From: Eledone cirrhosa
Taxonomy: Eukaryota
DNA: 64,000 nucleotides
NCBI GenBank assembly: GCA_964016885.1
Contig: OZ024747.1
Coordinates: 45,322,001 to 45,386,000 of the forward strand
Direction of reading: 5' to 3'
Every line of letters starts with the position of its first letter. The stretch's first letter is position 1. Shown here one piece after another: positions 20,184-23,604 of this stretch. A model generated the notes under the pieces. That model was not told the origin of the DNA and did not search any database. It saw only the letters and a list, made by a program, of their open reading frames with translations. A program made the position numbers and the translations under genes.

Positions 20184-20568
20184 TCATCATCATCATTTTA
20201 TGTCCATTTTTCCCTGCTTGCAAGGGTGGGATGGGAACTGATTCTGGCTTGATATCTACAGCTGGATGCCATTCCTAACACCAACCTCATTTACAGTGAG
20301 TGCTAGGTGCTTTTTTTCCGTGGCACCTACACGTCCACTTTACAGTGTGGGCTGGGTGCTTTTTTGCCGTGGCACCTGCACAACCACTTTGCAGTGGAAT
20401 GATAGAGACCCCAGTCCCTATCATCTCATTTCTACAACTCAGTAAACTGGAGCAATGTGAAATAAAGTGTCTTGCTCAAGGAAACAACACATCACCCGGT
20501 CTGAGAATTGAACTCACAACCTTTCGATTGCAAGGCCAATGCTCTAACCACTAAGCCATGTGCCTCTA
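20184..20568 (-). mobile_element. tRNA-derived SINE family A, full length
   Basis: Reverse complement: GAGGCACATGGCTTAGTGGTTAGAGCATTGGCCTTGCAATCGAAAGGTTGTGAGTTCAATTCTC (A and B boxes), CORE-like segment, two ~47-bp internal units, RTE-type (TGA)n tail. Confidence 0.9.
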
Positions 20569-22043
20569 TATATATAAGAACTATAATGATTATATCTGCA
20601 TGTGCACCTAAATCAGGATTGTCAGACGGACTAAAAGACAGGTTTTATGAATCACTAACACATACAACCTCCCAAATAAGCAACGGGGATTTTACAATCA
20701 TTGTTGGCAATTTTAATGAACATGTTGGCCAATTATGCAATGGCTTCGAATGGATCCAGGGAGGTTATGGATTCAGTGCTAGAAATGAGGAAGAATCCAG
20801 GCTTCTGGAATTCTGTAGTGCCGATGATCTATCTATCTGTAACACAAACTTCATAGAACCAGACAATCACTTGTTCATATATAGATCAGGTGAGCATGCC
20901 AGCCAGAAAGACTTTATCACCACCAAAGAACGAGACATAGTGACAGTTGTAAACACAAAGTCCATCCCTGGTAAAGAATGCACCTCCTAACACAACCTAA
21001 TAGTTAACAACTCCATATTTAAGGTTAGACAAACTCAACAACATAGAACAACCTGGAGGAGAAAAATATGGAAGTTAAAGGACCCTCAGCCCAAATTTAG
21101 AGGTAGGTAGCTTGATGCTTTTGACAATAAGGAAGGGCAAATAGTGACATACAATATAGAGGAACAGTGGAAGTTCCTGAAAAATAACCTACTCAAGGTA
21201 ACAAATGAAATCTGTGGTTGGAGTAGGTCTCGAGGTAGAAGTTGAGTGACTTGGTGGTGGAACAGTAAAGTGGAGGACACAATTAGGGCCAAAAGACAGG
21301 TGTGGAAAGAATGGCAGAATGGGGTAAGCAGAGAGCACTACCAGGATGTTAGGAGAGAAGATAGGTGACAGGTATACATTGCAAGATGGGGGGCAGAAAA
21401 CAAACATGTGCTACAATGTGATGACCAAGAGAAGTGGTTTTCAGTGTGACAAGGAAAATTGTGTTGATGGAGAGAAATGTGTCCAAGATGATAATGGTGT
21501 ACTTACACTCATTAACACTGAAAAGAAGGTAGCTGGGATAGTTGCTGAGATGCTGAAAACATCTGGAATGGTGGGTCACAACTTAACGACCCGTATTGTA
21601 AACCACATAATACAAAATGGTGTCATACACAATTACTGGAATAGCAGCATCATCATCAACTGCTACAAGAGAAAACGATATGTCCTAGACACAAAATTAT
21701 AAATGCTTCAAGTTAATTGACCAGGCCATGAAGGTTATAGAAAGAGTTATATCACAGCAGATCAGAGACCGAGTTAAAGTTAAATGAAATGCAATTTGGA
21801 TTTGTGCCAGGTAAAAGTACCACTGATGTTCTCTTCCTTGACAGGTAACTGCAGGAAAAGTACCTAGCTAAAAGTAAACCCCTACACTTGGTATTTGTGG
21901 ACTTCGTAAAAGCTTTTGACAGAATCCCCTGTTCCATTATCTGGTGAGCTCTTACAAAACTATGAGTAGATGATTGGCTTGTGAAGGTTGTACAAGCCAA
22001 GTAAGAGGAACAGTCAGTAACATTAGAATTAACTATGACTATA

Positions 22044-22163
22044 GTTTACGGCCATATCACACTGAAAACACCAGTTCTCATCCAATCACTGAAGTTAAGC
22101 AACATCAAGCCTAGTTAGTACTTACATGGGTGACCGCTTGGGAACCCTAGGTGCCGTAAGCAT
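22044..22163 (+). rRNA. 5S rRNA: 5S rRNA copy, full length, probably a retroposed pseudogene
   Basis: GTTTACGGCCATATCAC..GAAAACACC.GTTCTC.TCC.ATCAC.GAAGTTAAGC..GTTAGTACTT..ATGGGTGACCGCTTGGGAACCCTAGGTGCCGTAAGCA matches the metazoan 5S pattern, and the terminal helix TTACGG/CCGTAA pairs. Most differences from the remembered consensus are CpG to TpG/CpA. Confidence 0.93.
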
Positions 22164-22178
22164 TTACTGCTATTTTAT

Positions 22179-22508
22179 GGAGGCACATAGCTTAGTGGTT
22201 AGAGCATTGGCCTTGCAATCGAAAGGTTGTGAGTTCAATTCTCAGACTGGGTGATGTGTTGTTTCCTTGAGCAAGACACTTTATTTCACCTTGCTCCAGT
22301 TTACTCAGCTGTAGAAATGAGATGATAGGGACTGGGGTCCATATCATTCCACTGCAAAGTGGTTGTGGAGGTGCCATGGCAAAAAAAGCACCCAGCACTC
22401 ACTGTAAATGAGGTTGGTGTTAAGAATGGCATCCAGCTGTAGAAATCAAGCCAGAATCAGTTCCCGTCCCACCCTTGCAAGCAGGGAAAAGCGGACCTAA
22501 AATGATGA
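22179..22508 (+). mobile_element. tRNA-derived SINE family A, full length, directly downstream of the 5S copy
   Basis: A box TAGCTTAGTGG, B box GAGTTCAATTC, TTCCTTGAGCAAGACACTTTA core, tail CCCGTCCCACCCTTGCAAGCAGGGAAAAGCGGACCTAAAATGATGA. Confidence 0.9.
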
Positions 22509-23604
22509 TATAGTGAAGAATTTAACGCGCAGGTTGGAGTACATCAAGGCTCTGTTTATAATCCTGCAGACTATAAGACTGGCTGACTATGAGGGCTTCT
22601 GTAGGCTGATGATTTAACCCTTATAGATGAATCTATGACAAAACTAGAGGAGAAATTCCAAACCTGGAAGCAAGGCCTAAAATCAAAAGGTTTTCAATTC
22701 AACCTGACAAAGTCCAAAGTCCTAATATATAGAAAGGATAACATGGCTCAGATTCCCTCAGGAAAACGGCCTTGCTCTGTGTGCAGGAAAGGAGTAGGTA
22801 GAAACTCCATCCTAAGCCCCATATGGAAACTATAGATACATAAGAGATGTAGTGGGATTTCAGGTAGGTTATAAAAAATGCATATTTTATATGCGGTTGT
22901 TGCACAGGTGCAGTCAGTAGCAACAGTCCACAGGATACTAACTCCTTTAAATGCACAGAGTGCTTGGTAAAAGTAGTAGTTGCTAGTTTCTGTTACTTAG
23001 GCAACCAAATTAGCAGTGGATGTGGATGTTCTGAAAGTACTGTTGCTAGAGTGAGAATGGGATAGAGAAAGTGCAGGGAGCTACTACCGCTGCTAGCCAC
23101 AAAAGATATTCTCTTAAAATGAAGGGCAGCTTGTATGATGCATGAGATTGTAAATAAAGGAAGCTCCCATGCTTCGATGGATGTGTAATAGTAATATACA
23201 TGAATGGCAAAGCATAGATTAACTGAGAGAGAAACTGGGTATAAGAGGAGTCAGATGCAGTGTGCAGGAGAGGAGGATGCATTGGTATAGACATGCAGTG
23301 CATATGGAGGATAACAGCTGTATAAGAAGGTGCAGGAGGCTCAAGCTTGATGGAAGCTACAGTGTAGGAAGACCCAGGAAGTATTGAGATGAGGTGATAA
23401 AAGCTGATCTTGCACAATTGCACCCCTCAAAGCCGATGACACTGGCCTTGTGCAGTAATACAGAAGACTCACCTTCACATGTGCACAGGTTCAAACATAC
23501 ATACATAAGCACTATCACTAACATAGTGTGGTTCATAACAGAGAAGCATATTGTTATGCTTATGTATAATGAAAATACAAGAGTCTCATTGTTAATATTT
23601 TATA

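What the first reader, a model, noticed from the sequence alone, without database searches (positions are those of the whole stretch)
22040..22514. 5S rRNA + tRNA-SINE chimera inserted as a single unit with a TSD inside an RTE ORF
Seen: a full-length 5S copy (22044-22163), a 15-nt spacer, then a complete SINE A with its RTE-type tail. The block is bounded by TATAGT at 22040-22045 and 22509-22514. Removing it restores the host frame SNIRINYDY|SEEFNAQVGVHQG. The three minus-strand SINE A copies that keep their head (6864, 20184, 24958) have no 5S upstream. Known: 5S-headed SINEs (SINE3 class), 5S+tRNA composite SINEs and template-switch chimeras such as U6-L1 exist in other animals. Inference: either an undescribed 5S-tRNA composite SINE with two Pol III promoter types, mobilised by RTE, or a one-off template switch or read-through product. 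The spacer extends past the mature 5S end and contains TTTT, which favours read-through from a genomic 5S-SINE source locus.
Basis: partly seen in the sequence, partly recalled or inferred. Interest (0 to 1): 0.75.

Follow-up and report, generated by a model that had tools for sequence, protein, structure and literature searches.

The report
One of many 5S-SINE fusion retrocopies
A full copy of the small ribosomal 5S RNA, with its unprocessed tail, is joined to a complete jumping element inside one insertion scar; it is one of over a hundred such fusions in this genome with varied seams and partners, likely made afresh each time the copying enzyme hopped onto a 5S precursor, and not a self-spreading family.

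Summary
Observation confirmed: 5S copy (22044-22163), 13-nt linker, full tRNA-SINE with an RTE 3'UTR tail, and a 4-6 bp target duplication; related RTE copies show the empty site. The junction is neither unique nor a family. About 40 5S+SINE-A fusions were found, against at least 13,511 SINE-A heads. They have 34 different linkers, do not form a clade (AU p=0.007) and show no mother-daughter pairs. In a genome sample, 70 of 95 dispersed 5S copies are fused in sense to one of several partners, none directly in antisense. Linkers are 5S gene trailers cut at or before the T-run (they match extant arrays) or A-runs. A-runs go with a second SINE family (9/20 vs 2/52). Best reading: recurrent end-to-end template jumps by LINE reverse transcriptases onto pre-5S RNA; RNA ligation is the main rival; read-through from a source locus is not supported. 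The kind is known (U6-SINE, 5S-L1 chimeras), and this scan found it before at another locus of this genome. Added here: full-length sense precursors, trailer classes of different age, and youngest copies matching an 11-gene minor cluster rather than the large array.

The parts
22040..22045 (+). left target-site copy (last 2 nt shared with the 5S start)
   Evidence: empty site in host RTE copies
22044..22163 (+). full-length 5S rRNA copy, decayed: 8 differences from the majority of dispersed copies, 7 at CpG sites by my reading of the positions, 1 at position 82 in the region recalled as the C box
   Evidence: Rfam 92.9 bits; differences
22164..22176 (+). 5S precursor 3' trailer ending in T4, the longest form of a trailer class seen in 27 dispersed copies
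   Evidence: donor gene not found
22177..22508 (+). full-length SINE A joined at its first base
22186..22249 (+). tRNA-like head, with A- and B-box-like motifs at about 22188-22198 and 22231-22241 (consensus recalled)
   Evidence: Rfam tRNA 31.2 bits; ARAGORN calls no tRNA gene
22350..22508 (+). RTE 3'UTR-like body and terminal (TGA)n tail
   Evidence: SINE positions 174-287 are 77-83% identical to the 3' ends of host-family copies L201-L203, L205, L206, L209, L211 and L214, most of which end in (TGA)n
22509..22514 (+). right target-site copy
20560..23420 (+). dead host non-LTR element (RTE-like; clade label recalled from its motifs and tail), interrupted in its RT region; ends approximate
   Evidence: related copy L207 hits Pfam RVT_1 at E 3.5e-25; the window's N-terminal ORF had no Pfam hit

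Best explanation
This is a single, decayed chimeric retrocopy, likely made when an RTE-type reverse transcriptase copied a SINE A RNA to its first base and then jumped end-to-end onto the 3' end of an unprocessed 5S rRNA precursor. Shown: one insertion at a TATA site in a dead RTE; 5S in front, in sense, with gene trailer; SINE joined at +1; many independent look-alikes with other partners and seams. Inferred steps: (1) priming on the (TGA)n tail, helped by ATGA just upstream of the target; (2) run-off at the SINE 5' end with a few untemplated bases; (3) capture of a pre-5S RNA at whatever stage of trimming or tailing it had reached; (4) second-strand joining through 2 nt of microhomology. The copy would not spread further: its T4 would stop Pol III before the SINE tail, it lacks 5S upstream signals, and the 5S part has decayed.
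For: Junction recurs on 20 contigs (35 of 40 scored hits) but is rare: about 40 copies found against 13,511 exact SINE heads. 34 linker strings among 41 copies (2 strings mis-cut by the script). 5S-linked SINEs span four structural subtypes and show no diagnostic column (best p=0.01 of 250). The label is unclustered on the tree (25 changes vs 25.6 shuffled) and one clade is rejected (p-AU 0.007). Pairs sharing rare variants in both halves: 3 vs 3.1 expected. 70 of 95 sampled dispersed 5S copies have a sense partner from several families; of 139 copies 105 have a sense partner and none a directly adjoining antisense one. Linkers equal extant gene trailers with variable T-runs: the C4 870-bp array type and the C14 cluster type. 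Non-simple TSDs enclose the whole unit in 18 of 105 vs 4.8 shuffled, max 9. A-run linkers depend on the partner (9/20 SINE B vs 2/52, p=8e-5) and are absent before 45 solo SINE B heads, which points to a step tied to the copying machinery. RtcB ligation needs a 2',3'-cyclic phosphate and a 5'-OH and falls sharply with a 5' triphosphate (PMC6789731, passages).
Against: No experiment; jump versus ligation is inferred from end chemistry that is assumed (SINE 5' triphosphate, pre-5S 3'-OH). Pimentel et al. doubt that jumping is physiological and ascribe L1 chimeras to preligation (PMC8857657, section 10). The donor gene for this copy's trailer was not found in the assembly or at high depth in reads (depth about 119 vs about 30,000 over the 5S core), so its status as gene trailer rests on analogy with the other classes. 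The SINE tree is poorly resolved (1 of 76 branches starred), and 30 of the solo loci were picked by an exact 35-mer. Two copies (L003, L004) share an odd seam, though with no rare shared variants. The TSD signal comes mostly from SINE B chimeras (15 of 18); SINE A targets are TA-rich with short duplications.
Confidence: 0.7

Rival explanations
1. The 5S precursor and the partner RNA are first ligated in the cell (RtcB-like or another ligase), and the joined RNA is then retroposed through the partner's tail. The events are still recurrent and independent.
For: Shown for U6/L1 (PMC6789731, passages). The short AAAGAGT-tail partner always starts at the same 1-2 nt (15 of 15), as a cleaved RNA with a defined 5' end might.
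Against: At least 39 of 41 SINE A partners start within 3 nt of +1 (the other two were aligned internally), where a triphosphate is expected. The 5S ends are nested trims and A-runs, which should carry 3'-OH (inference). Linker type depends on the partner family.
Confidence: 0.17
2. A self-propagating composite 5S-tRNA SINE family, or several small ones, transcribed as a unit from master copies.
For: About 40 near full-length look-alikes on 20 contigs. 19 of 37 linkers lack a T4 and could be read through. Four copies share one linker. Such families exist elsewhere (HaSE3, CoeSINE5).
Against: Below 100 copies; no diagnostics; clade rejected; no excess of double-sharing pairs; the shared linker is simply the commonest array trailer.
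Confidence: 0.06
3. Two sequential insertions: a stand-alone 5S retrocopy in TATA, then a SINE into the TA at its 3' edge.
For: Stand-alone 5S copies in TA repeats exist (L034, L063, L068, L131, L223), and SINE A favours TA sites. One locus alone cannot exclude it.
Against: TA is palindromic, so about half of such insertions should be antisense, yet 105 sense and 0 adjoining antisense were seen. There is no separate duplication around the SINE here, and long TSDs enclose whole units elsewhere.
Confidence: 0.04
4. Read-through transcripts from a genomic 5S gene with a SINE placed behind it.
For: One such locus exists: a 5S gene with array-type upstream flank running straight into SINE B on contig C692 (L216).
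Against: No daughter with that seam among the copies examined. Each trailer is joined to many partners and ends at or before its T-run. A-run linkers are not in the gene flanks examined.
Confidence: 0.03

Closest known systems
U6-SINE and U6-L2/RTE chimeric pseudogenes of platypus (Mon-1), anole (AnolisSINE2, RTEX-2) and opossum (Doucet et al. 2015, PMC4476161; passages read)
   Same: Small Pol III RNA in front, in sense; 3' part from a SINE or LINE of a stringent clade; one insertion with a short TSD; recurrent and independent; ascribed to template switching.
   Different: The donor here is 5S precursor, mostly near full-length (67 of 105 start within 5 nt), with gene trailer or A-run. The host is an invertebrate. 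Several partner families take part in one genome.
5S/LINE-1 chimeric insertions in mammals (PMC11838501; passages read)
   Same: 5S rRNA joined to a retroelement in one event; the paper describes U6 chimeras as unique events that do not self-propagate.
   Different: Those 5S parts are mostly antisense and truncated at positions 46 or 90. Here they are sense, 3'-extended and joined to SINEs and RTE tails.
5S-headed SINE families with RTE tails: HaSE3 (PMC3272025) and CoeSINE5 (PMC5786205); Deu-SINE subgroup with 5S fused before the tRNA head (as cited in PMC4758252); passages read
   Same: Same parts list, and the same proposed birth by a switch from SINE RNA to 5S rRNA.
   Different: Those are propagated families with one fixed structure. 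Here each copy has its own seam and no lineage has spread, so this resembles the step before such a family is born.
U6/L1 chimeras formed by RtcB ligation (Moldovan et al. 2019, PMC6789731; passages read)
   Same: Full-length small RNA with its U-rich end joined in sense to the partner.
   Different: That route needs a cyclic phosphate and a 5'-OH; L1 partners are 5'-truncated, whereas here many partners are full-length SINEs joined at +1.

Membership tests
SINE family (SINEBase definition, PMC3531059) | at least 100 dispersed copies of the same structure | tested here: not met
   41 5S+SINE-A-type copies found. Recapture 13/27 gives about 240 dispersed 5S copies, so roughly 45 of this type.
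SINE family (SINEBase definition, PMC3531059) | copies share diagnostic changes with a source element and not with the cellular RNA | tested here: not met
   No diagnostic column, clade rejected, no excess double sharing. 5S variants track gene types.
SINE3 / 5S-tRNA composite SINE | 5S-derived head followed by body and LINE-derived tail | tested here: met
SINE3 / 5S-tRNA composite SINE | transcribed as one unit by Pol III from the 5S promoter | not testable with these tools
   No RNA run was listed. T4 lies in this linker and in 18 of 37 linkers.
small-RNA/retroposon chimeric retrocopies | small RNA 5', retroelement 3', same orientation | tested here: met
   105 sense partners and none adjoining in antisense among 139 copies
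small-RNA/retroposon chimeric retrocopies | one TSD around the whole unit | tested here: met
   Window site against 14 host copies; 18 of 105 vs 4.8 shuffled
small-RNA/retroposon chimeric retrocopies | independent junctions, no self-propagation | tested here: met
small-RNA/retroposon chimeric retrocopies | joining step: template jump versus prior ligation | tested here: inconclusive
   Indirect only: +1 joins and partner-dependent A-runs

The most novel reading that the evidence does not exclude
The roughly 180 5S fusions of this genome are a dated fossil library of pre-5S RNA ends captured by at least two LINE machineries with different end preferences: one takes U-ended precursors, the other often oligoadenylated ones. 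They record a succession of now-replaced 5S gene types and show that an 11-gene minor cluster, not the roughly 800-unit array, supplies the 5S RNA in the cells where heritable retrotransposition happens. The genome is a nursery of 5S-headed SINEs in which none has yet taken off.
Probability: 0.4. Interest if true: 0.65.

Novelty: new variant of a known kind. Interest (0 to 1): 0.45.

Why it matters
5S-headed SINEs are thought to be born by a switch from SINE RNA to 5S rRNA, but that step is usually inferred from finished families. Here the raw events can be counted in one genome, with full-length partners joined at +1 and seams that keep the state of the 5S 3' end. This gives a test bed for template jumping versus ligation outside L1, and a record of which 5S genes were active over time. 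The single locus itself is a dead copy with no likely function.

Tried and rejected
Unique junction: rejected. Composite family: rejected. Donor gene for this copy's trailer: not found by five genome patterns (12 and 19 matches were not listed) or at high depth in DNA runs. Expression: no RNA holder listed, which is no evidence either way. Empty-site or ortholog test: no joint skipping the element was among the rows shown and no listed piece spanned the stretch (most rows not shown), so it is uninformative; small-share runs of other organisms were not interpreted. About 900 reads with another trailer in one RAD run first suggested a hidden array, but they fit one dispersed locus. One search used diagnostic positions off by one and was redone; only its trailer and partner lists are used. 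Folding gave weak support for the head (z -1.9) and none for the tail (z -0.5). Pfam found nothing in the window's N-terminal ORF. Paper searches showed no report of such 5S chimeras in cephalopods among the listed papers; subscription journals and Repbase were not searchable, and supplements were not read.

Full report
Observation. The window holds one 5S match, 22044-22162, covering the whole Rfam model at 92.9 bits, followed by a tRNA-like head at 22186-22249. The SINE starts at 22177 (23 of 30 solo copies have A before the head motif), so the linker is 13 nt and ends in T4. TATAGT flanks the block; two bases overlap the 5S start and one may be tail. Of 14 other copies of the host element, 11 read through the site with a single copy, one does so before a deletion, one is truncated and one locally duplicated. 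The host is a dead RT element: a related copy hits RVT_1, and the RTE label is recalled from motifs and the (TGA)n end. SINE positions 174-287 match the 3' ends of that family at 77-83%, so the 'RTE-type tail' is shown. The octopus-like label comes from recall and earlier notes and was not tested.

Recurrence. The 91-nt junction gave 40 scored matches; 35 span both halves, on 20 contigs, and 5 stop after the trailer. An exact pattern gave 9 hits, all already in that list. SINE A heads number at least 13,511. I fetched all 98 dispersed sites among the first 100 of 119 rows of a 5S pattern search (2 rows were array units). Three lacked a complete 5S 3' end and were dropped. Of the other 95, 70 had a sense partner: 17 full SINE-A-type, 3 truncated A-type, 14 full and 4 truncated SINE B, 3 of a third SINE, 16 short (TGA)n tails and 13 short AAAGAGT tails; 25 had none recognised. 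That pattern fixes A at position 81 and so under-samples today's gene types. A sample neutral for that position (28 loci on C1-C4) gave 22 of 28 with partners. Over all 139 copies then held, 105 had a sense partner, 2 had antisense hits starting 37-46 nt away, 1 sat in an RTE and 31 had none. Recapture (13 of 27) suggests about 240 dispersed 5S copies.

Not a family. The 41 SINE-A-type fusions have 34 linker strings (two were mis-cut). The 33 with a recognised tail fall into four structural subtypes and share no diagnostic column against 47 solo copies (8 rows without that tail were left out). On the tree the label needs 25 changes against 25.6 shuffled, and one clade is rejected at p-AU 0.007, though only 1 of 76 branches is strongly supported. 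Among 37 copies, 3 pairs share rare variants in both halves against 3.1 expected; SINE B gave 1 vs 0.9 and the short tail 5 vs 2.7. SINEBase asks for 100 copies and source-specific diagnostics (PMC3531059, passages); neither is met.

What the linker is. The 870-bp units of the C4 array end in a trailer that matches a common linker class followed by a long T-run. The 11-gene C14 cluster has its own 5S type and trailer, and both reappear together in dispersed fusions with shorter T-runs (L054, L221); two fusions carry its exact type with zero divergence. This copy's trailer class (27 copies) occurs in nested lengths up to T4 and is joined to SINE A, SINE B, the third SINE, short tails, or TA repeats alone. 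No gene with that trailer was found, and its depth in reads was about 119 against about 30,000 over the 5S core. Trailer classes differ in age: one class (23 copies) has median divergence 0.070 and a linked variant in 20 of 23, against 0.020-0.030 for the two younger classes (p=6e-6). In the neutral sample none of 28 copies carried the C4 array diagnostics and 2 were of the C14 type. One C4-like capture (L194) was seen outside that sample, and recent growth of the array is an untested alternative to its silence. Pre-5S RNA has an oligo(U) end trimmed by an exonuclease (PMC10498592, passages). Sixteen of 152 copies have A-runs in place of the trailer. In the census these go with SINE B (9/20 vs 2/52, p=8e-5), and none of 45 solo SINE B heads has an A-rich upstream. 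Reading them as oligoadenylation is my inference; untemplated addition by the RT is also possible.

Single events. Non-simple duplications of 7 nt or more enclose the whole unit in 18 of 105 fusions, against 4.8 (max 9) for shuffled pairings; 15 of the 18 are SINE B fusions. SINE A types target TA and leave short scars that this test misses. The absence of adjoining antisense partners argues against sequential insertion into palindromic TA.

Mechanism. I favour an end-to-end jump of the RT from the SINE 5' end to the pre-5S 3' end (0.70). R2 RT jumps by way of untemplated overhangs (PMC8857657, abstract and section 10), although those authors doubt its role in vivo. Ligation first (0.17) is shown for U6/L1 but needs end chemistry that full-length SINE RNA and trimmed or tailed pre-5S are not expected to have (PMC6789731, passages). 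Retroposed 5S promoters are thought to be weak without upstream signals (PMC3272025, passages), and 18 of 37 linkers keep a T4, which would explain the lack of spread.

Comparison. It works like the U6-SINE and U6-RTE chimeras of platypus, anole and opossum (PMC4476161, passages) and meets the structural tests for that class. It differs from mammalian 5S/L1 chimeras, which are mostly antisense and truncated (PMC11838501, passages). It has the parts of HaSE3, CoeSINE5 and the 5S-fused Deu-SINEs but fails family membership. Eight paper searches listed no cephalopod report; papers not named above were seen only as listings. This scan already noted the phenomenon at another locus (e1-10352695). 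Earlier notes led me to the C14 cluster, whose position, type and trailer I checked myself; I did not check its histone context or expression.

Verdict. Real, single-event chimera; a new variant of a known kind; interest 0.45.

Noticed in passing
L216 (G000:C692:24313): A 5S gene with array-type upstream flank and the sequence type of most dispersed copies runs without a terminator into SINE B; a candidate read-through source with no daughter seen.
   Followed up: partly
L215 (G000:C14:42768900-42777600): Eleven 5S genes of one sequence type, mostly head to head. The two dispersed copies with this exact type show zero divergence and are fused to a short tail element.
   Followed up: partly
G000:C4:92.40-93.21 Mb (L078, L079, L110-L119): Large 5S array with two unit types (about 1380 and 870 bp). 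The 1380-bp unit carries a decayed 5S 3' half whose trailer resembles the oldest linker class.
   Followed up: partly
L054, L061, L175, L217, L218, L221 and others: A roughly 60-nt element with an AAAGAGT-type tail starts at the same base in 15 of 15 classified 5S fusions and in several solo copies, suggesting a discrete short RNA or a fixed cleavage or stop site.
   Followed up: partly
L018 (G000:C28:66.80 Mb): A second 5S copy lies back to back with a 5S-SINE chimera and is followed by an inverted piece of a 5S 5' end.
   Followed up: no
G000 C3:243670304, C7:70605786, C24:18288647: Three old 5S copies share another, unidentified partner after the trailer.
   Followed up: no
L124, L169, L219, L224: Relic or orphan 5S genes with array-type flanks outside the two clusters.
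   Followed up: no
L209, L210; window 20189-20570: SINE A copies also sit inside other copies of the host RTE family and, in the window, abut the start of the host RTE fragment.
   Followed up: no
L029: The chimera's tail is followed directly by an inverted copy of the SINE 3' end.
   Followed up: no
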